Shown one piece after another: positions 13,142 through 38,881 of a stretch of DNA of 64,000 nt. The DNA lies in IMG/VR virus record IMGVR_UViG_3300005573_000004, positions 64,001 to 128,000 of that record. One strand, written 5' to 3'. Position 1 is the stretch's first letter, and the number at the start of each line of letters is the position of its first letter. The stretch is from a virus. A model generated the notes under the pieces. It had not been told where the DNA came from, did no database searches, and saw only the letters and a list, made by a program, of their open reading frames with translations. The position numbers were made by a program, and so were the translations under genes.

Positions 13142-13744
13142 ATGAAGAAAGTGAATATACCGAGAGAAAAAAGATGGGTTCATCTGATTTGTTTAATTCT
13201 CGTACCTATACTTTCGATATTAGGTAGTCCTCAGATATCAAACGAAGCAGTATACAAAGTAAATACGATGCACGATTATATAGAACAATATTTGAAACTT
13301 TTTCCTAATTTAGAATATGCTGAAGTAGTAGCTGTTATTAATAAAGAAAGTGGAGGAAAAGCGGATTTGGTAACATATGAAAAGTCCGTAAAAGATTATA
13401 GTTATGGTCCAATGCAAGTTCGTGGTAAAACTTTGAGGGCTATGGGATTTCGTGGTGATTTTAGACAGATTCTTAATTATGAAAATGGAATTTATTGGGG
13501 AATGAAGTTTTTAAGTATATGTAAAGAAAATGTAACTAGAGAATATATGAAGACTCATAAAGTAAAAAATAAGCATGCTATTAGAAAACGCACTTTTGCA
13601 ACTTATAATGCTGGAGGAGTTTATTGGCGTACAGGATACGTAGGCGAAAAATATATTAATCATTCATATGTTCGTGCGTGTGAATGGCATTATTGGAAAT
13701 TGTATAAATATAATAAATTCTTTTCTCCTGCAAATAATATATAA
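13142..13744 (+). CDS. Lytic transglycosylase (SLT/GH23) with N-terminal hydrophobic anchor
   Basis: KESGG (catalytic Glu), SYGPMQV and YNAG motifs; N-terminal hydrophobic helix. Confidence 0.88.
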   Translation: MKKVNIPREKRWVHLICLILVPILSILGSPQISNEAVYKVNTMHDYIEQYLKLFPNLEYAEVVAVINKESGGKADLVTYEKSVKDYSYGPMQVRGKTLRAMGFRGDFRQILNYENGIYWGMKFLSICKENVTREYMKTHKVKNKHAIRKRTFATYNAGGVYWRTGYVGEKYINHSYVRACEWHYWKLYKYNKFFSPANNI

Positions 13745-13762: not shown

Positions 13763-14158
13763 ATGAAAAAATTATTTTTCATATTAGCTTTGATAGGTTT
13801 ATTTTTTGCACATATTGAAATTTTTGCGGAAAACACTCCTACTCCAACTGCTACTATGACTAGCACTCCAGGAGTATTTTATATTTATAACTCTTTAGAT
13901 TTGTTTATAAATGAATCAAGAACTATTAATAATTTGTCTGGATCATATACTTGGACTAATAATTGGGGGAATCAGATAGTTCCAGATGTAACTTTAGAAT
14001 CTGGACCTATAGATGCTTATGAAGCGATAGTAAAATTTGATACAAATAATATTATAGTTACTGTAGTAGATAAATATGGTATTCCAGTAAGTTGTACTTT
14101 TACGCCTGCTGTGGTTAATATACGTGCATATAGAAATAGATCAGGGTTTACTTGGTAA
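13763..14158 (+). CDS. Secreted protein: signal peptide, short T/P linker, shared C-terminal domain
   Basis: MKKLFFILALIGLFFA signal peptide; TPTPTATMTSTP; C-terminus aligns with the 15921 and 18288 proteins. Confidence 0.7.
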   Translation: MKKLFFILALIGLFFAHIEIFAENTPTPTATMTSTPGVFYIYNSLDLFINESRTINNLSGSYTWTNNWGNQIVPDVTLESGPIDAYEAIVKFDTNNIIVTVVDKYGIPVSCTFTPAVVNIRAYRNRSGFTW

Positions 14159-14181
14159 AAATATATTAGGAGGTTTATTTT

Positions 14182-15333
14182 ATGGATATTGATGGAAAAA
14201 GACCTACGTTTCCAGATGGAGTTAAATTAAAAACAAACGATTTACTTAGTTTGCAAACTCAGCTTACTAGTATGGTTCAGGCTTTATCAAATATGTTTTC
14301 TGACGGAGTTATATCAGGTTTAACTCTTGAACAGGAAGGAGAGTATATATCATACGACTATGAACATAATCGTTGGGATTATGGAAAAGGAAGCGTACGT
14401 ATTCACGGTGGTATGGCTAAAGCTGAAAATGGTGAATTATTAATTATTGAAGAAGGTCAAATTCCTGATATATCTAATGATTTATTCTGGGATCAAACTA
14501 ATATTGGATCAGGTAGAGATATTTGGATTTATAAAGATGATGTAGAAAGTATAAAAACTAGGCCTGATATTATAGGTACTTCTAAAAGTGTACTAGAAAA
14601 AAATATTTATAAAGTAGCATATGGTAATTCTCCAAGTAAACAACCTTATTTTAAACTTTGTACTGTTACTAAATTAACTCCTGGATATCCGGCGTCAATT
14701 CAAAATAGTGTTACAATTAATTATGCTCTTAAGAGCTTGACGCATTCTAATTCATTATTTACAAATAGTACAACATATACCGGACCAAAACTCAAAGGAT
14801 ATGAAGCTTTAGTAGATCGGAGTGTTCCTGGAACAGCGCTTATTACACCAGGGACTATTACGAACGTTGAAATTGCTGATAATGCTATAACTACAAATAA
14901 AATTTTGAATCTTAGTGTTACAAAAGAAAAAATTAATGGAAATTTTAAAAGTCAAATATTTTCATTCAACGTACCTAAAGGAGGTTCTGTTATATGTGCA
15001 AATTTTAGCGGTGGAGGGGTGATATTTTATCCGGGAACTAGATTAAATGTAACTGGTATAGTTACCACTATTTCTGAGGGTGTTGATAGAGGTTTTTGGG
15101 TAGCATGGGGTGGTTATATTGCTAGTAATGGAAATCTTATTCCGCATTATGGAAGTCCAGAAACTAATTCTGTAGATTTATATGGTTTTAGTACGGATAG
15201 TGGACAGATATCCAATAGTGGTTGGCAATTAGTGTATCTTCCCAAGGATAGACTCTTAACGGCTAAAAATAATACAGGTTACGATGGAAGATATTGTCAT
15301 TTAGAAGTTACTATTTTTGGATACTATCTATAG
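14182..15333 (+). CDS. Putative tail fibre/baseplate-associated structural protein
   Basis: RPTFPDGVKLKTNDL N-terminus, GVISGL, and ITNVEIADNAITTNKI fibre-type repeat. Confidence 0.6.
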   Translation: MDIDGKRPTFPDGVKLKTNDLLSLQTQLTSMVQALSNMFSDGVISGLTLEQEGEYISYDYEHNRWDYGKGSVRIHGGMAKAENGELLIIEEGQIPDISNDLFWDQTNIGSGRDIWIYKDDVESIKTRPDIIGTSKSVLEKNIYKVAYGNSPSKQPYFKLCTVTKLTPGYPASIQNSVTINYALKSLTHSNSLFTNSTTYTGPKLKGYEALVDRSVPGTALITPGTITNVEIADNAITTNKILNLSVTKEKINGNFKSQIFSFNVPKGGSVICANFSGGGVIFYPGTRLNVTGIVTTISEGVDRGFWVAWGGYIASNGNLIPHYGSPETNSVDLYGFSTDSGQISNSGWQLVYLPKDRLLTAKNNTGYDGRYCHLEVTIFGYYL

Positions 15334-15352
15334 AAATAAAAGGAGGCTATCA

Positions 15353-15556
15353 ATGACTACAAATTCAAACAAGAAGGAAACACCGAAGGAAAAAATAAAA
15401 GAATTAGAGGAAAAGCTAAAAAATATGCCTGTCTATGAATGCGAAATATATTCTAGAGTCGTTGGATATTTCAGGCCTATAAAGCAATGGAATAAAGGAA
15501 AACAGACCGAATGGACTGACAGAACCAAATTCACTCCTGAATTTTTGGAGAAATAA
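15353..15556 (+). CDS. Stand-alone NrdD-like C-terminal glycyl-radical domain (class III RNR fragment)
   Basis: CEIYSRVVGYFRPIKQWNKGKQTEWTDR matches the NrdD C-terminal signature; SD AGGAGG at 15341. Confidence 0.88.
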   Translation: MTTNSNKKETPKEKIKELEEKLKNMPVYECEIYSRVVGYFRPIKQWNKGKQTEWTDRTKFTPEFLEK

Positions 15557-15919
15557 ATGAAAAAGCTAATACTAATTTTTTTACTTATATATAGTTTGCT
15601 TTATGCTAATACTCTACCGAAACCATATTTATTTTATTTTAGAGTTCCTATTGGAGTGCACGTTGTTAGTCCAGAAAATTTAAATGTCAAAGCATTTACG
15701 ACTGGAACAAATGATGAAAATTTTAGCTATTATTGGATTTGTTTATATGGTGATACAACTGAAAATAATGAAATGGCATTTTTATATTGGATGAGAGCAT
15801 TATACGAAAATGCTCCTTCAGAATTAAAGCCTTATATGATTTTTGAAGAAATTGGTAGCAATACAGCTTCTGCACGATATGATGCTATAAGACACAATTT
15901 GATAGAATTAGGTTTCTAA
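15557..15919 (+). CDS. Small secreted hypothetical protein
   Basis: MKKLILIFLLIYSLLYA signal peptide. Confidence 0.65.
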   Translation: MKKLILIFLLIYSLLYANTLPKPYLFYFRVPIGVHVVSPENLNVKAFTTGTNDENFSYYWICLYGDTTENNEMAFLYWMRALYENAPSELKPYMIFEEIGSNTASARYDAIRHNLIELGF

Positions 15920-15920
15920 G

Positions 15921-18275
15921 ATGAATAAAATAATCAAATTCATAATTTCATTCCTCTTTATACCTATTATCGTTTTTGGAGCAGGAAATGAGTATTTTAA
16001 TTTAACGCATTTTAAAATTTCAAATCCTTCAAATCAAACAATGAATTTTATGTATAATTATTATAATTATGCAACCTACAACGTGAAATTAAGTGATTTT
16101 AAAGTAGTTGGATATTTTTTTAGAGACGGAAGCACTAATTGGATTTATGATAGTTCTAATACACAAGGTTCAATTTATTATTCAGATGGAAGTTGGTATA
16201 CAAATACTGGTTCTAATTTTACAATAACGTTTACAAATTTAACATATACAGTAGATTGTGGTTTGGTAAATGGTATACAAAGGAAAGCAGATGGAATGTT
16301 TGAAGCAAGATATAATGGAGCAGAAGATATTCCTGCAAATGGCGGTTATGTGCAATTAGGTTCAGGAAATTATTGGTTTAGAATAAGAAAAAGTGATTGG
16401 AGTGATATTAGTTCAAATAAAGCGAATTCTTATTCTTGCCAAGATAATGATACAGTATTAGGAACAACAGCACCAGGAATTAACTGGAAATGGCTTATTT
16501 TATATTACAGCGACGATGGTGGAACAACTTGGCATCAAGTATGCGAAAGGACCGATACTAATGGAACAGTAGATACAGAAAGCGGAGCATTACCTTGCAA
16601 TCAAAACGCTTGTGCTGCTCCTACTAATGCTTCTACTAATACTCCTACTATAACTCCTACCATAACTCAAACTATAACTCCTACTATAACTCAAACAATA
16701 ACTTCTACCATAACTCAAACTATAACTCCTACTATAACTCAAACAATAACTTCTACCATAACTCAAACTATAACTTCTACAATTACTCCTACAATAACTC
16801 AAACAATAACTTCTACTATAACTAAAACCATAACTTCTACTATAACTATAACTTCTACCATAACTCAAACTATAACTCCTACTATAACTCAAACAATAAC
16901 TTCTACTATAACTAAAACCATAACTTCTACTATAACTATAACTTCTACCATAACTCAAACTATAACTCCTACTATAACTCCTACCATAACTCAAACCATA
17001 ACTTCTACCATAACTCAAACTATAACTTCTACAATTACTCCTACAATAACTCAAACAATAACTTCTACTATAACTCCTACCATAACTCCTACCATAACTC
17101 AAATTATAACTCCTACGATTACTCCTACCATAACTTCTACAATAACTTCTACAATAACTTCTACAATAACTTCTACAATAACTTCTACTATAACTTCTAC
17201 AATTACTCCTACCATAACTCAAACAATAACACCTACTATAACTCCAACCACGGCTAACCAAGGAGATTTAAGAGTTTGGAGTGTTTCGCAAGAATCTAAT
17301 AAAATAAAATGGGCGTTTCAACTTAGAAATACCAATCCAGATCAAGTACCTATGCCTTTATCTAGTTATTTAGTTACATTTTATATTAATTCTACCAAAC
17401 CAGCTAGTTCTATAGATTTTTATTCTAATGTAGGAAGTTGTGGAATTTATGATCAGAATGGTACATTGATTACACTAATTGGTAGGTGGGATCTTTATGA
17501 TATTTCTGATATATCTCCTATAGATTGTGGTTATTCTTATGGAATTCAGAGACGTGCTACTATAAAAATAAGTATTAAATATAATGGAACAGAGACAATT
17601 CCATATGGTGGATATATGGCTCCGGTTTCTAATACTGCTGTAGTTGGATGGATACAGTATAAAGATAATTCGAATTTTGATCAATCCTATGATTACTCCA
17701 GTATGTTATCATTAAATTTAGGTTCTGATATAAATTCTGCTATTGATTATCAGTATGTAGACTTATCTATTTTAAATAATACAGAAACTAAATTGTGTGA
17801 AGGAAAACTTGGACCAAACGATACAAATGCTATTCAGGATATATATGGACATTGGATTGATGCATTTAGTGGAATTTGGCCTTGTGGAACTGTAATATGT
17901 AATATTGCAACTCCTACAATTACTTCTACTAGTACTATTACATTAACTCCTACTTTAACTGTGACTCCGACTATAACTCCAGGTGAAGTTATTTGGTCTT
18001 CTAATACTCATAAAATTATAAATACAGTAATTTCATCTTCTACTGGAACTGGTATAGTAACGTGGAGACAAGATTTTCCTTGGGAGGCAAAAAAATATAA
18101 TGTTCAGATTCAAGCCCGGCAAATGCCAAATAATGCAAAGATAACTTTTTATAAACTTGACAATTCTGTTATAATAAGTATAATTGATGATAACGGCAAT
18201 ACAGTAGATTGTTCTGGAACTAATGCTATCTTGGATGTATTTATTGACTATGATATTAAGCAATACAATTTTTAG
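15921..18275 (+). CDS. Secreted protein with two CBM3-like domains, a long Thr-rich linker and the shared C-terminal domain
   Basis: Signal peptide; LSDFKVVGYFF and RIRKSDWS...SYS; second copy FQLRNTN...LSSYLVTFY...SNFDQSYDYS; resemble CBM3 consensus. Confidence 0.72.
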   Translation: MNKIIKFIISFLFIPIIVFGAGNEYFNLTHFKISNPSNQTMNFMYNYYNYATYNVKLSDFKVVGYFFRDGSTNWIYDSSNTQGSIYYSDGSWYTNTGSNFTITFTNLTYTVDCGLVNGIQRKADGMFEARYNGAEDIPANGGYVQLGSGNYWFRIRKSDWSDISSNKANSYSCQDNDTVLGTTAPGINWKWLILYYSDDGGTTWHQVCERTDTNGTVDTESGALPCNQNACAAPTNASTNTPTITPTITQTITPTITQTITSTITQTITPTITQTITSTITQTITSTITPTITQTITSTITKTITSTITITSTITQTITPTITQTITSTITKTITSTITITSTITQTITPTITPTITQTITSTITQTITSTITPTITQTITSTITPTITPTITQIITPTITPTITSTITSTITSTITSTITSTITSTITPTITQTITPTITPTTANQGDLRVWSVSQESNKIKWAFQLRNTNPDQVPMPLSSYLVTFYINSTKPASSIDFYSNVGSCGIYDQNGTLITLIGRWDLYDISDISPIDCGYSYGIQRRATIKISIKYNGTETIPYGGYMAPVSNTAVVGWIQYKDNSNFDQSYDYSSMLSLNLGSDINSAIDYQYVDLSILNNTETKLCEGKLGPNDTNAIQDIYGHWIDAFSGIWPCGTVICNIATPTITSTSTITLTPTLTVTPTITPGEVIWSSNTHKIINTVISSSTGTGIVTWRQDFPWEAKKYNVQIQARQMPNNAKITFYKLDNSVIISIIDDNGNTVDCSGTNAILDVFIDYDIKQYNF
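16642..17250 (+). repeat. 12-bp-unit in-frame tandem array encoding T-I-T-[P/Q/S/K]
   Basis: ACHATAACTYCT/CAA units over about 600 bp. Confidence 0.95.
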
Positions 18276-18287
18276 CGAGGATTCCAT

Positions 18288-21200
18288 ATGAGAAAAATTT
18301 TAACTTTCTTTTTCTTATTGATAGCTTCTACAAGTTTTAGTTTAACTTGGGAAACTTATACAAATATGACCAATTCTGCTGGTCAAGGTGTTAGTACTAT
18401 GGCTAATGCCATAGTTTCTTATAATGGTTATGTTTACCTTTTAGGTACTGGAAACACTATGTCTGCTTCTTCAGATACAATATATAAATTTCCTTTGGAT
18501 TTATCATCTCCAGTTTCAGTGCTTGGAACGAAGTTGCCTTTAGGTGGAGGAAAATATCAATCTGCATTTATGTATGGTAATAGTATTTATTATTTTCCCG
18601 ATCGTAGTGATTATGTATCTGGATCTAGAAGTTTACAAGGAGTTTATAGAGCAAATATTATTAATAATGTTATAGGTAGTTTTTCCAAAATAGGAGATTT
18701 ACCATTTTATAAAGACCATCCGTATACAATGAGGACAATAATTCAGAATCCAGATGATAACAGTTACTATATTATCGGTGGTGCAGTTTTAGGAGAAAAT
18801 GATTGGAGTAATTGGTGTGGATTTGCCCAACAGACTAATTCATATTCATTTTTTTATTCATATGATCCATATACTGAGTATCGTTCTAATTCTTATGCTA
18901 TTGCTATGCGTACTCACGATAATAATGATAATGAGATTGAACCTTGTAGAGTAATTACTGGAGAAAATATATTTTCTGTTGCAGATGTAGTTAAAGTTTC
19001 TGATGGGTATATTATAGGTGGTTCTTTATATGATCCTATAATTGGTCTTACAGTTGGGTATAAATTTTTAAAAATTGATTTTAATGGAAACACGATATCT
19101 AGAACATCAGATGTTTTAACTAATGGTATATATCTTATGAATATAACTAAAGATTATAATGATAATGTATATTTATGTGGGTATACTGGTTCTTTAGGAT
19201 ATATAATAAAAGCAGATTCTAATCTTAATACAAAATTTGTAAAGAGTTATAATTTAGCTGATTCTTATACACAGCTTAATGATATTGAAGCTTATGGTAA
19301 TACTTTATATGCAGTTGGATATACAGTTTCTACTAATCCTAATTTGATATATCATAATATTTTAGTTAAATTAGACCTTAATGGTAATTGTATAACTTCA
19401 TTTTCAGATCAAAATATGACATATTCCGGGTCTGCTTATTATGGTATTACAGTTGTAGCTGATACAATTTATGCTGTAGGATCTGGTATTTCTGATACTA
19501 ATCAGAGTTATCCTATATTAGGAGCATATGATTTAAATTTGAACCGTAAATGGACAGTAAATATTTCAAATCCAGGAATTGCTTATTTTGGTATATATGA
19601 TAATGTTAATTTTTCATACCCTGTTATAGCTATTATTCCGGTTTATTCTAGTACCTACGGTATTTATAGAGTTCGAGCAGATACAGGGTCTTATATTGAT
19701 AGTGCTAGTTATACTATGATTTATGAACCTTATCTTAATCATCACTCTATGTTTAAAAATGGAAAATATTATTTAGGTACTAATACACAGATTATAATGA
19801 TTGATAGTAATTTAAATACACAAATTGTATCTGCTATTGCTTATGGGTCTGATATATCTCCAGCTACATCTAATATAACTTATGTTAAAGTAAGTGGAAG
19901 TACTATTGTTGATTCGTGGACCAATACTGTTCCATTCCTTAGTTATGGAGGTAGTGGTTCGGTTTATAATGGATATTTACATTATTATGGTGGATTATCA
20001 AAATCTGCAATTGATGTTACAAATATACATTATTATGCTCCAATAGGAGTTAGTGGCACTCTTGGTACTTGGGGTTCAGAATATTGGCCGGGTCCTCCAA
20101 TGGCTTATGGAAATGCTGTAAATTTAAATGATAAAGTTTATTTTTCTGGTAATCCCTATCCCTATCCATATCCATATACTATGATTGGTACTTATGGTAT
20201 TGGTGGATCTATGTTAACTTGGACCTATGATGCTCACGCGCCAAAACCAACATGGGGAGAACGATTGCTTGCTGCATTAGGAAAATTATTTAGAATAGGT
20301 GGAACTACAGATTCTGATACATATTATCCAATTAACGATGTTTTTATTGCAGATAATTTTACTCCAACTATAACTCCAACTATTACACCAACTTGGACTC
20401 CAAATTTAACACCAGTTACTTTTAATGATTGGGTACAAGTTCCTACACCATCTTCGGATATACCAGGCAGATCTGGTCATGCATTAATTGATGGAAGTGA
20501 AATTGGATCACCAGGATGGATGTTTGTTGCATTAGGATATAATTATGATATTTTTCTTAAAGATATACGGAAGTCTCCAAATGGTTCTGATTGGGAATTT
20601 GTATGTTCATCTAATACTCTTAGTTATAAATATTCTTTTGGTTATACAACTTTTAATAATAAACTATGGATGATTGGCGGAGTTGATAGTTCTGGTCTTA
20701 CAAATTCTGTATATTCTTCAACTGGATCTAATATTAAATGGGAATCACGTTTACCATTAGGCGTAGCTGCTCCAGGCGTTGTAGTTTTTAATAACTATAT
20801 ATATGTAATTGGTGGTGGAGATGCTGGTACGGGAGCTGGACAAGCATCAGTTTTTCGTTCTTCAAATGGAATAGATTGGGAAACGGTTACATTAAATGCA
20901 GAATTTGGACAGAATGCATATGCACCTGCGGCGTGTGTTTATAATAATAAAATATGGTTAATTGGCGGAAATTATGCATATGGATCTGGGACACAAAACG
21001 TATATTATTCATCAGATGGAGTTTCCTGGACATTGGCTACAAGTTCTGCAGCCTTCGGAAAGAGAGAGCATGCAAAAGCTTTAGTATTTCAAAATAAAAT
21101 GTGGTTAATTGGTGGAGAGAGTAGTAATACTTATTATAATGATACTTGGTATTCAACTGATGGAATAAATTGGACACAATATATTACAGATCATACTTAT

Positions 21201-21767
21201 ACAGGACGTTCCAGATTTGGCGCAACTATTTTTGACGGAAGAATGTGGATCCAAGGAGGTTATGCTGGTGTTGGCTCTAATTCTAGTCTTAGAGATGCGT
21301 GGTATTTAATTCCTGGAACTCCTACAATAACGCCTACTGTTACAATAACACCTACTGTTACTAAAACATTTACACCTAGAAATACTGCTACCAATACAAT
21401 TACTCCGACTCTTACTCCTACACTTTTTCTAACAGCAACTATAACACCAACAGTTACAGTTACTTTAACACCTACTCCATATGATATATGGTGGAGAACT
21501 ACTGGTACTGTATATCATGGTTCTATTTTAATGGATTCATCAAATGGTAAAAAAGTTGTTACTTTACCACCAGAATCTGCAATATATTTTCCTGATGGAC
21601 AATGGAAAGCAAAATTAAGTCGTGATAGAATACAACCTGATACGTATCTATTATATACACCAGGTTCTATGCAATTTACAATAATTATACAAAATAGAGA
21701 CGGAACTGAGCACGATTGTTCATCCGATACGTGCACAGTATATTTTAGTGTATTTAAGGAGCCATAA
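18288..21767 (+). CDS. Secreted multi-beta-propeller (Kelch/Asp-box) protein with T/P linkers and the shared C-terminal domain
   Basis: Signal peptide MRKILTFFFLLIASTSFS; Kelch blades NKLWMIGG, NYIYVIGG, NKIWLIGG, NKMWLIGG; S-x-DG-x-x-W boxes. Confidence 0.8.
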   Translation: MRKILTFFFLLIASTSFSLTWETYTNMTNSAGQGVSTMANAIVSYNGYVYLLGTGNTMSASSDTIYKFPLDLSSPVSVLGTKLPLGGGKYQSAFMYGNSIYYFPDRSDYVSGSRSLQGVYRANIINNVIGSFSKIGDLPFYKDHPYTMRTIIQNPDDNSYYIIGGAVLGENDWSNWCGFAQQTNSYSFFYSYDPYTEYRSNSYAIAMRTHDNNDNEIEPCRVITGENIFSVADVVKVSDGYIIGGSLYDPIIGLTVGYKFLKIDFNGNTISRTSDVLTNGIYLMNITKDYNDNVYLCGYTGSLGYIIKADSNLNTKFVKSYNLADSYTQLNDIEAYGNTLYAVGYTVSTNPNLIYHNILVKLDLNGNCITSFSDQNMTYSGSAYYGITVVADTIYAVGSGISDTNQSYPILGAYDLNLNRKWTVNISNPGIAYFGIYDNVNFSYPVIAIIPVYSSTYGIYRVRADTGSYIDSASYTMIYEPYLNHHSMFKNGKYYLGTNTQIIMIDSNLNTQIVSAIAYGSDISPATSNITYVKVSGSTIVDSWTNTVPFLSYGGSGSVYNGYLHYYGGLSKSAIDVTNIHYYAPIGVSGTLGTWGSEYWPGPPMAYGNAVNLNDKVYFSGNPYPYPYPYTMIGTYGIGGSMLTWTYDAHAPKPTWGERLLAALGKLFRIGGTTDSDTYYPINDVFIADNFTPTITPTITPTWTPNLTPVTFNDWVQVPTPSSDIPGRSGHALIDGSEIGSPGWMFVALGYNYDIFLKDIRKSPNGSDWEFVCSSNTLSYKYSFGYTTFNNKLWMIGGVDSSGLTNSVYSSTGSNIKWESRLPLGVAAPGVVVFNNYIYVIGGGDAGTGAGQASVFRSSNGIDWETVTLNAEFGQNAYAPAACVYNNKIWLIGGNYAYGSGTQNVYYSSDGVSWTLATSSAAFGKREHAKALVFQNKMWLIGGESSNTYYNDTWYSTDGINWTQYITDHTYTGRSRFGATIFDGRMWIQGGYAGVGSNSSLRDAWYLIPGTPTITPTVTITPTVTKTFTPRNTATNTITPTLTPTLFLTATITPTVTVTLTPTPYDIWWRTTGTVYHGSILMDSSNGKKVVTLPPESAIYFPDGQWKAKLSRDRIQPDTYLLYTPGSMQFTIIIQNRDGTEHDCSSDTCTVYFSVFKEP

Positions 21768-21768
21768 T

Positions 21769-23295
21769 ATGGATATAATATCTGGAATTAAACAAGCTTT
21801 TACCTTATATAAAATGTCTAAAAAAGTTAATACAGATGTGGAAATACCTGAACCGTATGCATCTATCATAGAAAAAATGCAACGAGTTGCAGAAAAAACT
21901 GGCTATAAAATTTATCCAGTTGGAGGATTTGTTAGAGATTTAGTTTCTGGATATTTTCCAAAAGATTTAGATATATTAGTAGATGGTCCAGGAGATAATC
22001 CAGCTGTTGAATTTGCTTCTATTTTAGAACAGAATAACGTTGGAAAAAATGCAGTAACGTTTGAAAAAGAAGTATCAGATATAGATCCAATGGCTGCAAA
22101 ATTTGGCGTTGCTAAAATGATTATTGATGGTATTCCTGTAGAATTAGTTATGCCACGTGGAGAAAAGTATAATCCTGATTCTAGAAAGCCTGAAGTTTTT
22201 AAAGCAGATATAAAACAGGATGCTTTAAGAAGAGATTTCACTATTAACACATTAATGTATGATCCTGCAACCAAGCAAGTATTAGATCCGACGGGACACG
22301 GTTTAGAAGATTTAAAAAACGATGTTATAAGATCTGCTAATCCTGATGTAGATACAGTTTTCAAAGATGATCCATTAAGAATGCTTAGAGCTATCAGATT
22401 TATGATAACTAAAGATATGAAAATTGATCCAAATACTTTAGATGGTATTCGTAGGAATGTTGATAGGCTTAATATAATTTCTAAAGAACGAATTGCTGAT
22501 GAACTTAAAAAAATAATTTTAGCAGATAAACCCAGTAGGGCAATCAGGCTAATGAAAGACCTTGGTCTTTTAAAATACATTATACCGGAGCTTGAAGATA
22601 CAGAGAAAGTGATGGAAGTTTCTAAATATCATCTTGAGGAACCTACTTTTGAACATATTATGCGAACATTAGATAACATTCCTCCAGAAATAACTTCTAG
22701 ATTAGCAGCTTTATTACATGATATTGGTAAACCATTGACAAGAACCATAGAAAAAGGAGTAGTGCATTTTATAAATCATCACAATGTTGGTGCTGATATG
22801 GCTAGGAAGATATTACAAAGATTAAAATTTCCAAATGAAATGATAGAAGATGTTAGTAAATTGATCCAATATCATATGGTGCCTCATATGTATACTAGCG
22901 AACAAGGAGATAAATCATTAAGAAGATTCTTATTAGATATTGGTCATTTGATAGATTTCATATATGATTTAGCAGAAGCTGATAGAAAAGGTTCTGGAGT
23001 TAGAAATGAAGAAGCCGAAGCTAGATTTCAAGAATTTAAAGAAAGATTAGAAAAGTTAAGACATCAACCTATTACGGTTGAACAGTTGAATAAACCTCTT
23101 ATTGATGGGAATGAACTAATGGAAATGTTTAATAGTCCGCCTGGAAGGTGGATACGTGATGTACATAAAGCTCTTGTAGATTTGCAACTAGAAAATCCAC
23201 AATTAACAAAGGACCAAGCCAAGACTTTTGTTGAGGAATATGTAAGATTAAAGCATCCCGAAATTTTTAAGAATAGACTCTTGACAGAACATTAG
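21769..23295 (+). CDS. cca: Class II CCA tRNA nucleotidyltransferase with HD domain
   Basis: VGGFVRD..KDLDI, DALRRDFTIN, DDPLRMLRAIRF, SKERI and LLHDIGKP motifs; SD AGGAG before ATG 21769. Confidence 0.9.
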   Translation: MDIISGIKQAFTLYKMSKKVNTDVEIPEPYASIIEKMQRVAEKTGYKIYPVGGFVRDLVSGYFPKDLDILVDGPGDNPAVEFASILEQNNVGKNAVTFEKEVSDIDPMAAKFGVAKMIIDGIPVELVMPRGEKYNPDSRKPEVFKADIKQDALRRDFTINTLMYDPATKQVLDPTGHGLEDLKNDVIRSANPDVDTVFKDDPLRMLRAIRFMITKDMKIDPNTLDGIRRNVDRLNIISKERIADELKKIILADKPSRAIRLMKDLGLLKYIIPELEDTEKVMEVSKYHLEEPTFEHIMRTLDNIPPEITSRLAALLHDIGKPLTRTIEKGVVHFINHHNVGADMARKILQRLKFPNEMIEDVSKLIQYHMVPHMYTSEQGDKSLRRFLLDIGHLIDFIYDLAEADRKGSGVRNEEAEARFQEFKERLEKLRHQPITVEQLNKPLIDGNELMEMFNSPPGRWIRDVHKALVDLQLENPQLTKDQAKTFVEEYVRLKHPEIFKNRLLTEH

Positions 23296-37849: not shown

Positions 37850-38881
37850 ATGCAGATAATTAAAACAGGTACAGGATTTGACAGAAGGGCAGATGTATCC
37901 TTCGGCAGAGATGGCAACATCAATGCTTTTGATAGACAGGATGCAATCAATCGTATTGCAAAATATTTAACTGCAAGCGAACAGCCCACTTATGATGAGA
38001 GAGTGTCTTCGTTATTTTCTGAAGAAGAAAAAAACCACCTAATTAACAAATTTGCATCACCAAACGTAAGGTTAGTAATTGGACAGGCAATGGCCAGTCC
38101 ATTAAAAACGTTCTTAGAATACAAGGGCGTTATGAGACGTGCATTAAAAGTTGATCCGCTTGCTCCAGGTGCTATTCCGATTTACGATCGTGATACAGAA
38201 GAAATTTCAGCTGAGCCGATTGCTTCCCAGTCAGCAATTACTCAGACGAAAATAGTTGGGGAACGTATCATGGTCCCAGTTTTTGAAATCGCAGCGAACC
38301 CAACTATAAAACTGCGTGAGGTTAAAATTCGCAGATTTAACATAATTGACCGTATACAAGTTCGTACACGTCAATTTATGCAGGAAGCTGAAGACGCAAG
38401 TATTATAAACTTGTTAAATGCAGCTTCTACTTTGGTTAACTCTCCAGTTGTAGTTGACACTTCTGCAAGTGGAAACTCACAGGGTTATATCCAGAGAAAA
38501 GACTTGGTCAAGCTTGCTCGAGAAATTGAACAGCATGACTTATTTGCAGTATCTATGTTCTTTTCAATTTACAGATATGCAGATATCAAACAGTGGGGTA
38601 CACAAGAATTGGATCTTGTAACCTTAAAACAGGTTATAGATACAGGTCTTGTAGCTCAGTTACATGGGCAGAATATCTATGTGACAAAGAAATTGCCACA
38701 TGATATAGTACTCTGCACTTCAGATCCTGACTATGTTGGCGTGATGCCAGTATATCAGGATATTGAAGTAATCCCTGCTGATATTCCTTGGGAAACCTCA
38801 TTCGGATGGGCGTTCACAGAGCTCATTGGAATGTCGGTATTTAACCCGAAGGGCGTCAGTAAGTTAGTTATTTCAAAATAA
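37850..38881 (+). CDS. Major capsid protein, HK97 fold, encapsulin (Linocin_M18)-like
   Basis: PLKTFLEYKGVMRRAL, VPVFEIAANPTI, RFNIIDR..QEAED, E..G..V.NP.GV; position after scaffold and decoration genes. Confidence 0.88.
   Translation: MQIIKTGTGFDRRADVSFGRDGNINAFDRQDAINRIAKYLTASEQPTYDERVSSLFSEEEKNHLINKFASPNVRLVIGQAMASPLKTFLEYKGVMRRALKVDPLAPGAIPIYDRDTEEISAEPIASQSAITQTKIVGERIMVPVFEIAANPTIKLREVKIRRFNIIDRIQVRTRQFMQEAEDASIINLLNAASTLVNSPVVVDTSASGNSQGYIQRKDLVKLAREIEQHDLFAVSMFFSIYRYADIKQWGTQELDLVTLKQVIDTGLVAQLHGQNIYVTKKLPHDIVLCTSDPDYVGVMPVYQDIEVIPADIPWETSFGWAFTELIGMSVFNPKGVSKLVISK

What the first reader, a model, noticed from the sequence alone, without database searches (positions are those of the whole stretch)
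13763..21767. Secreted modular adhesin-like system: signal peptide, passenger, T/P linker and a shared novel C-terminal domain
Seen: 13763, 15557, 15921 and 18288 all start with Sec-type signal peptides, which is unusual among virion genes. Three end in a homologous ~95-aa domain after a T/P linker: IIVTVVDKYGIPVSCTFTPAVVNI, VIISIIDDNGNTVDCSGTNAILDV and FTIIIQNRDGTEHDCSSDTCTVYF. 13763 is almost only this domain. Passengers are two CBM3-like domains with conserved Cys residues (15921) and several beta-propellers (18288). Inference: the shared domain is an anchor or oligomerisation module. It could display carbohydrate-binding proteins on the infected cell, or attach exported (possibly O-glycosylated, disulfide-bonded) fibres to virions at lysis, tethering them to cellulose where hosts live.
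Basis: partly seen in the sequence, partly recalled or inferred. Interest (0 to 1): 0.82.

Follow-up and report, generated by a model that had tools for sequence, protein, structure and literature searches.

The report
Phage-exported adhesin trio sharing new domain
A family of large phages from hot springs and digesters encodes three exported, stalked sugar-binding proteins that all end in the same new 97-residue domain, whose shape resembles phage fibre tips; what they do outside the cell is unknown.

Summary
The window lies in a complete 150-kb virus. ORFs 13763, 15557, 15921 and 18288 are the only ORFs in the window with a classical Sec-type N-terminus; the SLT-like 13142 has a signal-anchor. 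Three of them end, after a Thr/Pro linker, in a homologous ~97-aa domain (CTD). An HMM built from outside sequences only scores them 2.5e-26, 6e-28 and 6e-4, against 0.34 for the next ORF. The divergent third type gives HHalign 95.6%.

The CTD matches no Pfam, NCBIfam or PHROG model. It folds confidently (pLDDT 89) as a beta-sandwich. Its best structural matches are the distal C-terminal domains of phage tailspikes and fibres and H-type lectins, but they are only middling (Z 5-7, TM 0.6-0.7).

An exhaustive search of 1.84 billion proteins found about 20 full-length copies. Every one whose context could be read lies in a syntenic relative or beside a head-protein gene (that match is weak for P0040). 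No carrier was seen in a cellular genome, so an ordinary host sorting tag is unlikely.

The copies fall into three clades. All three phages with full coverage keep exactly one signal-bearing protein of each type. The CTDs are the most constrained parts (dN/dS 0.04-0.10). The CBM3-like passengers are supported and one Kelch propeller is confirmed; the other propellers are not.

Function and host are unknown. The earlier scan notes concern this same genome only.

The parts
13142..13744 (+). Exported SLT-type lytic transglycosylase with an N-terminal signal-anchor; first gene of the exported cluster and conserved neighbour of the type-1 CTD gene
   Evidence: Pfam SLT 20.3 bits, just under the 21.3 cut-off. 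ES...GPMQ...YNAG motifs are visible in the translation. 37% identical homologue in L005; 'SLT (weak)' homologue directly upstream of the CTD gene in L011/L012.
13763..14158 (+). P0001: signal peptide (aa 1-22), 12-aa T/P linker, type-1 CTD (aa 35-131; nt 13865-14155)
   Evidence: dN/dS of the CTD 0.088 against the 93% relative.
14182..15333 (+). Tail-fibre-family protein without signal peptide, interleaved in the cluster
   Evidence: phrog_892 at 1.4e-4; its L005 homologue (607 aa) hits phrog_892 at 1.4e-15.
15557..15919 (+). P0004: small exported protein (signal peptide, no CTD, no family), conserved directly upstream of the CBM3-like gene
   Evidence: Homologue in L005, 112 aa, E=5e-5.
15921..18275 (+). 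P0002: signal peptide; CBM3-like 1 (aa 21-235); ~210-aa Thr-rich stalk (nt 16626-17252, a 12-nt unit x53); CBM3-like 2 (aa 445-663); T/P linker; type-2 CTD (aa 686-784; nt 17976-18272)
18288..21767 (+). P0003: signal peptide; conserved ~600-aa N-terminal region with blade-like repeats; T/P linker; Kelch propeller (about aa 700-1012); T/P linker; type-3 CTD (aa 1063-1159; nt 21474-21764)
   Evidence: dN/dS of the CTD 0.042.

Best explanation
This is a conserved module, specific to one phage lineage, of Sec-exported modular glycan-binding proteins. Each phage encodes three proteins built as signal peptide, variable passenger, Thr/Pro stalk and a constant ~97-aa C-terminal beta-sandwich (CTD). 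The passengers seen are CBM3-like domains, a Kelch propeller, a propeller-like region and, in relatives, LamG/NHL. The CTD has three ancient paralogous types, and each phage keeps one of each. The module also includes an exported SLT-type muramidase and small exported proteins. The CTD belongs to the structural class of distal C-terminal domains of phage fibres and tailspikes and of H-type lectins. In another phage a homologue sits at the tip of a fibre-type protein that has no signal peptide. I infer that in this lineage a fibre-tip binding or assembly domain was redeployed onto exported proteins. After Sec export and signal cleavage, the CTD would tether the chains to a conserved ligand outside the cytoplasm, either a host envelope glycan or the partner CTDs. 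The stalks would then hold the variable carbohydrate-binding heads away from that anchor. Shown here: the architecture, the homology, the phage-only distribution, the one-of-each-type pattern, the purifying selection and the fold class. Inferred: export, the ligand, the oligomeric state and the biological purpose (adhesion of infected cells or debris to polysaccharide, or coating of the host surface).
For: Signal features occur only in these ORFs and are conserved in divergent orthologues. There are no amino-acid changes in the signal peptides against the 93% relative. CTD homology. Each CTD lies within 0-2 residues of the C-terminus. AF2 with 22 rows gives pLDDT 89.2, pTM 0.76. Fold neighbours: Pam1 tailspike and LKA1 gp49 C-termini Z=7.2, K64-1 S2-4 6.7, phi297 6.1, K1 lyase 5.8, R2 pyocin fibre 5.4, H-type lectins 5.2-5.8. 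Atlas TM 0.63-0.70 to Gp53-like_C, Phage_cement_2, Phage_tail_fib, H_lectin and tailspike clusters, mostly viral. BFVD top rows are phage fibre proteins. The exhaustive search gave 46 hits, about 20 of them full-length and C-terminal. All long contexts are syntenic phages. P0032 is a tail-fibre PHROG match (2e-11) plus CTD, has no signal peptide and follows the major head gene. There are three clades, and the window phage, L005 and the 173-kb G001 each carry exactly one of each, all with signal peptides. The slot after SLT holds a type-1 CTD with passengers of 0, ~300, ~780 or ~1,690 aa. CTD dN/dS is 0.04-0.10, against 0.37-0.45 for P0003's passengers. Four invariant Cys in the CBM3-like module fit an oxidising, extracytoplasmic location.
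Against: No experiment or dedicated predictor confirms export. Structural matches are middling; Z below 8 is common for unrelated beta-sandwiches, and Foldseek against PDB found nothing significant. The host and its envelope type are unknown: the CBM3-like module gave no cellular match and the Kelch block gave only ~30% matches to scattered MAGs. In a diderm host, Sec export alone would leave the proteins in the periplasm. The cluster is interleaved with a tail-fibre-family gene and lies just upstream of the terminase, which equally fits a virion-related role. P0001 has no passenger, so 'display' cannot be its function.
Confidence: 0.5

Rival explanations
1. Post-lysis virion arming. The exported proteins are accessory fibres that meet the virions only when the cell lyses. 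The CTD docks them onto a virion component, for example the non-exported tail-fibre-family protein encoded among them.
For: The cluster is interleaved with a tail-fibre-family gene and lies directly upstream of the terminase and head genes. One fold neighbour is a phage cement/decoration family. A constant domain under variable heads is the logic of a virion-docking module.
Against: I know of no precedent for a Sec-exported tailed-phage fibre. In the one fibre-type carrier (P0032) the CTD is at the distal C-terminus, not the virion-proximal end. The region also holds non-structural genes (NRDD peptide, CCA-adding enzyme).
Confidence: 0.15
2. Receptor masking. The CTD is a receptor-binding tip domain. 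Exported copies saturate the phage receptor glycan on the infected cell and on debris. This blocks superinfection and protects progeny, as the T5 Llp lipoprotein does for FhuA (from my own knowledge, not checked here).
For: The fold class and the P0032 context point to a distal, ligand-binding fibre domain. P0001 is signal plus CTD only, which this rival explains best. The CTD is under strong purifying selection.
Against: It does not explain the large, conserved carbohydrate-binding passengers and long stalks, or why three CTD types are retained. No CTD copy was found on any non-exported protein of this phage.
Confidence: 0.15
3. Host secretion tag. The CTD is a sorting signal for a host secretion or attachment system (in the manner of the T9SS CTD) that the phage proteins hijack.
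For: The architecture signal-passenger-linker-~90-aa C-terminal beta-sandwich is that of T9SS cargo. The second half of the CTD shares a hairpin motif with HYR/PKD repeats, which are common in such cargo.
Against: No match to Por_Secre_tail, CHU_C or the NCBIfam T9SS models. The exhaustive search covers the very metagenomes that hold these phages, yet it found no full-length copy on a cellular protein (and the context calls).
Confidence: 0.05
4. Not exported. The N-terminal hydrophobic segments are uncleaved membrane anchors or assembly signals for proteins that stay on the cytoplasmic side.
For: No dedicated predictor or experiment was available. 13142 looks more like a signal-anchor.
Against: The n-h-c organisation is classical, with small residues at -1/-3 and 17-22-aa length, and is conserved across divergent orthologues. 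Invariant Cys sets and Thr/Pro stalks are typical of extracytoplasmic proteins.
Confidence: 0.05

Closest known systems
Distal C-terminal beta-sandwich domains of phage tailspikes and tail fibres (Pam1 tailspike 7eea, LKA1 gp49 4ru4, phi297 gp61 4ru5, K64-1 S2-4 9k4a, K1 lyase 7w1c, R2 pyocin fibre 6cl6; Pfam Gp53-like_C)
   Same: Same size, all-beta sandwich, position at the very C-terminus. Best structural matches in three libraries. One homologue (P0032) really sits at the end of a fibre-type phage protein.
   Different: No sequence-profile match to any such family. Z is only 5-7. The window's carriers have Sec signal peptides and Thr/Pro stalks instead of a virion-attachment N-terminus and a trimeric shaft.
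H-type lectins (Helix pomatia agglutinin 2ccv, SLL-2 3wmp, discoidin I C-terminal domain 2w94; Pfam H_lectin)
   Same: Similar small beta-sandwich (Z 5.2-5.8; Atlas TM 0.63 to an H_lectin cluster that is mostly viral). This suggests glycan binding.
   Different: No Pfam H_lectin match. Sugar-binding residues were not examined.
T9SS cargo (signal peptide, passenger, C-terminal sorting domain) and cellulosomal dockerin-bearing proteins (signal, module, Pro/Thr linker, C-terminal docking module)
   Same: The same modular logic: an N-terminal Sec signal, swappable functional modules, flexible Thr/Pro linkers and a constant C-terminal ~70-100-aa module that addresses or assembles the protein. CBM3 is the classical scaffoldin module.
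   Different: No sequence match to T9SS CTDs or dockerins. The domain was found only in phages, not on host cargo. No cohesin-like partner was identified.
HYR / PKD Ig-like adhesion repeats
   Same: The last ~40 residues share the V-x-V-x-D-x-x-G-N-x-x-x-C hairpin (HHalign 86.5%, E=5e-6). Tandem HYR/PKD/Big_9 proteins appear as multi-stretch partial hits.
   Different: Only 40 of ~97 columns align. The CTD is single-copy and C-terminal, not a tandem repeat. PKD and HYR structures are not among the top structural matches.

Membership tests
T9SS C-terminal sorting domain (PF18962 / TIGR04183; CHU_C PF13585 / TIGR04131) | Match to the family HMMs | tested here: not met
   No hit at E<=0.1 (Pfam) or E<=1 (NCBIfam), for whole proteins or isolated CTDs.
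T9SS C-terminal sorting domain (PF18962 / TIGR04183; CHU_C PF13585 / TIGR04131) | Shared with many cargo proteins of the host | tested here: not met
   The exhaustive profile search found about 20 full-length copies. All those with readable context are in phages. Caveat: the host genome is unknown.
T9SS C-terminal sorting domain (PF18962 / TIGR04183; CHU_C PF13585 / TIGR04131) | Host possesses a T9SS | not testable with these tools
   Host not identified.
Phage fibre/tailspike distal C-terminal domain (e.g. Gp53-like_C PF21882) | Structural match to solved or predicted members | tested here: inconclusive
   These domains are the top matches, but at Z 5.4-7.2 and TM 0.54-0.70. Foldseek against PDB is not significant.
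Phage fibre/tailspike distal C-terminal domain (e.g. Gp53-like_C PF21882) | Sequence-profile match | tested here: not met
   No Pfam or PHROG family covers the CTD. Profile against PDB sequences gives nothing below E=0.27.
Phage fibre/tailspike distal C-terminal domain (e.g. Gp53-like_C PF21882) | Located at the C-terminus of a virion fibre protein | tested here: inconclusive
   True for the homologue P0032. The window's three carriers have signal peptides and no fibre shaft.
H-type lectin (PF09458) | HMM match and fold | tested here: inconclusive
   No HMM hit. Fold matches at Z 5.2-5.8 and TM 0.63.
HYR Ig-like repeat (PF02494) | Full-length profile match | tested here: not met
   Only 40 columns align. 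No Pfam HYR hit on the window proteins.
CBM family 3 (PF00942), for the passengers of P0002 | Pfam HMM match | tested here: not met
   No hit at E<=0.1.
CBM family 3 (PF00942), for the passengers of P0002 | Remote sequence and fold similarity to solved or annotated CBM3s | tested here: met
   A profile of five copies gives CBM3s as the top 11 PDB hits, best E=8e-4. Atlas features 0.93 with 184/256 shared, TM about 0.6 over 150 aa, and all ten best share CBM_3.
CBM family 3 (PF00942), for the passengers of P0002 | Planar aromatic cellulose-binding strip; binding to cellulose | not tested
   No good model of this domain: the single-sequence fold failed.
Kelch beta-propeller, for P0003 about aa 700-1012 | Pfam match above the gathering score, repeated blades | tested here: met
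   PF24681 at 67.8 bits (cut-off 50); Kelch_1 at 43 bits. Four K/R-h-W-h-x-GG blades.
Sec (SPase I) signal peptide | Basic n-region, 10-15-aa hydrophobic core, small residues at -3/-1 | tested here: met
   My own heuristic scan only, without SignalP. The features are conserved in orthologues. No lipobox.

The most novel reading that the evidence does not exclude
The three paralogous CTDs, one of each type retained in every phage, assemble 1:1:1 into a heterotrimeric foot like the homotrimeric C-terminal domains of tailspikes. This would join three different exported chains into one three-headed, stalked extracellular adhesin. The nearly invariant single Cys might stabilise it. Such a complex could be built outside the cytoplasm and then added to virions or to the host surface at lysis. 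That would be extracellular assembly of a phage-encoded host- or substrate-binding organelle.
Probability: 0.12. Interest if true: 0.85.

Novelty: new variant of a known kind. Interest (0 to 1): 0.66.

Why it matters
Tailed-phage proteins that act outside the cytoplasm before lysis are few, mainly toxins, exclusion lipoproteins, spanins and some endolysins. Here a whole lineage of 150-173-kb phages from hot-spring and anaerobic-digester metagenomes keeps a set of three Sec-exported, mucin-like-stalked carbohydrate-binding proteins, held together by one new domain family. If they coat infected cells or debris, they would be a new way for a phage to change host adhesion to polysaccharide substrates or to control adsorption. 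If they are added to virions after lysis, that would be a new assembly route. The CTD is also a compact, apparently thermostable, phage-specific module with swappable passengers, which is of practical interest as a display or targeting scaffold.

Tried and rejected
1. Single-sequence AF2 of P0002:440-784 gave pLDDT 38.5 and was unusable. Its CTD part did show the same strand order as the good model.

2. Homotrimer prediction of the CTD (3 copies, alignment A2) returned no verdict: score 0.00, controls not run. It is neither for nor against oligomerisation.

3. Foldseek against PDB found nothing at E<=0.001. A profile of the CTD against PDB sequences found nothing below E=0.27.

4. Host identification failed:
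- tblastn of P0003 against GenBank phages gave no match.
- The terminase and capsid proteins have only distant relatives. The capsid is 40% identical to Bacillus phage G, and the terminase about 25% to Geobacillus and Bacillus phages.
- A scan of 185,579 species genomes with the CBM3-like module found no relative.
- The Kelch block gave only ~30% matches to unrelated MAGs.
- The genome search draws no relatives for a virus record.

5. Screens of the phage for other muralytic families (Amidase_2, Amidase_3, Phage_lysozyme) were empty. The same screen missed the sub-threshold SLT match, so this result is uninformative.

6. An IMG/VR pattern scan with type-1 CTDs found nothing.

7. About half of the 46 hits in the exhaustive search are cellular HYR/PKD/Big_9 tandem-repeat proteins that match only a 30-45-column hairpin. 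I rejected them as family members.

8. A literature search found no description of such a system.
Full report
CONTEXT. The window is bases 64001-128000 of a complete 149,961-bp virus record with direct terminal repeats. GC is about 32% and almost all window genes lie on the + strand. The terminase, portal and capsid genes follow the region of interest. A 93%-identical relative comes from IMG metagenome 3300029625. That sample is the Yellowstone spring SJ3, 61.9 C, pH 5.4 (PMC6368606, PMC8098120). Other relatives come from ENA and Logan assemblies, including a biogas-plant run (PMC7842101).

OBSERVATION: ORFS AND SIGNAL PEPTIDES. The ORFs are as described. A simple n-region charge plus hydrophobic-core scan of every + strand ORF of at least 60 aa flags exactly 13763, 15557, 15921 and 18288. 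ORF 13142 carries a longer basic n-region followed by a hydrophobic anchor. Elsewhere in the genome a few more signal-bearing ORFs exist, but none carries the domain. Signal features persist in orthologues that are only 30-45% identical. Against the 93% relative, the signal peptides have no amino-acid changes. SignalP was not available.

OBSERVATION: THE SHARED DOMAIN. Pairwise similarity is clear only for P0001 against P0002 (z=6.2, 0/1000 shuffles). The exhaustive profile search of 1.84 billion representatives settled the matter. It returned 46 hits, and about 20 of them are single full-length matches at the extreme C-terminus of proteins of 96-1784 aa. An HMM built only from those outside sequences recovers P0002 (6e-28), P0001 (2.5e-26) and P0003 (6.4e-4). 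The next ORF of the phage scores 0.34. P0003's domain has its own orthologues (44% identity in L005). As a small profile, that type matches the profile of the other two types at 95.6% probability (E=1e-8, 77 columns), against 0.25% for the reversed control.

OBSERVATION: THE PASSENGERS. The two CBM3-like modules of P0002 are paralogues with four invariant cysteines. Pfam does not see CBM_3. However, a five-row profile puts family-3 CBMs in the top 11 PDB hits (best E=8e-4), and the ESM Atlas agrees by features and by structure. In P0003 one Kelch propeller is firm. The N-terminal ~600 aa is conserved (32% to L005) and has blade-like repeats, but matches no family.

WHAT THE DOMAIN IS. No Pfam, NCBIfam or PHROG model covers it. 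The PHROG hits of P0002 and P0003 fall on the linkers. With a 22-row alignment, AlphaFold2 gives a confident six-to-seven-strand beta-sandwich (pLDDT 89.2, pTM 0.76).

Foldseek against PDB finds nothing significant. The exhaustive aligner, BFVD and the Atlas all rank the same class first:
- the distal C-terminal domains of phage tailspikes, depolymerases and fibres (Pam1, LKA1 gp49, K64-1 S2-4, phi297, K1 lyase, R2 pyocin fibre, Gp53-like_C, Phage_tail_fib);
- a phage cement family;
- H-type lectins.

The scores are Z 5.2-7.2 and TM 0.54-0.70. They are middling and do not prove homology.

The multi-stretch hits of the exhaustive search are cellular HYR/PKD/Big_9 repeat proteins. They share only the V-x-V-x-D-x-x-G-N-x-x-x-C hairpin. 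That could be a remote Ig-like relationship, but it is not membership.

WHERE THE DOMAIN OCCURS. No carrier examined sits in a demonstrably cellular genome: all are unnamed metagenomic sequences, one deposited at NCBI as a 1.3-kb contig of a metagenome assembly. Every carrier on a long contig sits in a syntenic relative of this phage. The shared order is a ~2,000-aa protein, conserved small genes, the SLT gene, the CTD genes, a tail-fibre-family gene, a tiny NRDD peptide, Kelch and CBM3-like proteins, then the terminase.

Two carriers come from other phages and lack signal peptides. P0032 has a tail-fibre PHROG N-terminal half (2e-11) and follows the major head gene. P0040 follows a gene with a weak head-protein match (E=0.0019).

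An ordinary host sorting tag is therefore unlikely. The metagenomes that hold the phages would also hold the host's cargo proteins.

COMPARATIVE PATTERN. A maximum-likelihood tree of 25 CTDs gives three clades, with support 94/89, 89/89 and 99/99. The window phage, L005 and the complete 173-kb phage G001 each carry exactly one CTD of each type. Every one is on a signal-bearing protein and lies within 0-2 residues of the C-terminus.

The slot directly after the SLT gene always holds a type-1 CTD, but its passenger varies widely:
- nothing in P0001;
- a Kelch propeller in P0051;
- about 780 aa in L005;
- about 1,690 aa with LamG/NHL in P0020.

P0003's Kelch block is absent from its L005 orthologue. 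The CTDs are the most constrained segments (dN/dS 0.04-0.10), against 0.37-0.45 for P0003's passengers and 0.14-0.54 for the linkers. Linker length differs even between the 93% relatives.

The picture is a constant C-terminal module, variable heads and hypervariable stalks, in three non-redundant copies.

MECHANISM. My best reading (confidence about 0.5) is that a fibre-tip-type binding or assembly domain has been redeployed onto Sec-exported proteins. After export, the CTD would tether the chains to a conserved extracytoplasmic ligand, either a host envelope glycan or the partner CTDs. The Thr/Pro stalks would present the carbohydrate-binding heads.

The rivals are post-lysis arming of virions (0.15), receptor masking (0.15), a host secretion tag (0.05) and no export at all (0.05). 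Retention of exactly three types suggests, but does not show, a 1:1:1 hetero-oligomer.

The host is unknown. Capsid and terminase affinities to Bacillus-group phages are weak hints only.

VERDICT. The domain is a new family, and the exported three-protein module has no described counterpart that I could find. Its function remains inference.

Noticed in passing
window 15317-15556 (+): A tiny ORF matches only the last ~30 residues of anaerobic ribonucleotide reductase NrdD, the glycyl-radical end (PF13597, 3.5e-8). A 57-64-aa counterpart sits at the same position inside the exported-protein cluster in every relative examined.
   Followed up: partly
G000:C1:145676-149797 (- strand, outside the window) and G000:C1:39843-40271 (-): A second set of signal-bearing ORFs. 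Four are adjacent paralogues that start MIKKLL/MFKKLL followed by a hydrophobic core. None carries the CTD (E>1).
   Followed up: partly
L005:16009-18654: The 881-aa CBM3-like exported protein of the relative L005 ends, after its Thr stalk, in a different ~90-aa C-terminal domain with no CTD match. So the stalked exported proteins of this lineage use at least two kinds of C-terminal module.
   Followed up: no
window 16618-17248: The stalk of P0002 is encoded by about 53 copies of a 12-nt unit (a 48-nt super-unit x12.8). The assembly of the 93% relative appears to break around this array: the contig behind L004 starts at or just after the stalk of its P0002 homologue, and L003 ends before it. 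This suggests length instability or an assembly problem.
   Followed up: no
CTD alignment A2, position 77 of P0001:35-131 (window about 14093-14095): A single Cys in the motif V-D-C-S is nearly invariant (>90%) across the family, with no second conserved Cys in the domain. It is replaced in the L005 type-3 copy and in P0019. It could form an intermolecular disulfide or bind a metal.
   Followed up: no
window 21748-23295 (+): A CCA-adding tRNA nucleotidyltransferase with an HD domain (phrog_2244, 1e-63) overlaps the end of P0003 by 20 nt. No tRNA gene was found in the window.
   Followed up: no
window 37850-38881 (+): The major capsid protein is 40% identical (E=2e-63) to that of the 498-kb Bacillus phage G. 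That is far above all other cultured phages.
   Followed up: no
L005:8694-9077 and the 173-kb relative: Relatives carry an S-adenosylmethionine decarboxylase-like gene (PF02675) just upstream of the SLT gene. No counterpart was seen at that place in the window.
   Followed up: no
L024 (G002:C1:11826-12113, -): The CTD-bearing frame in a 12.5-kb IMG/VR fragment contains one in-frame TAG. It may be a broken gene, a sequencing error or recoding.
   Followed up: no
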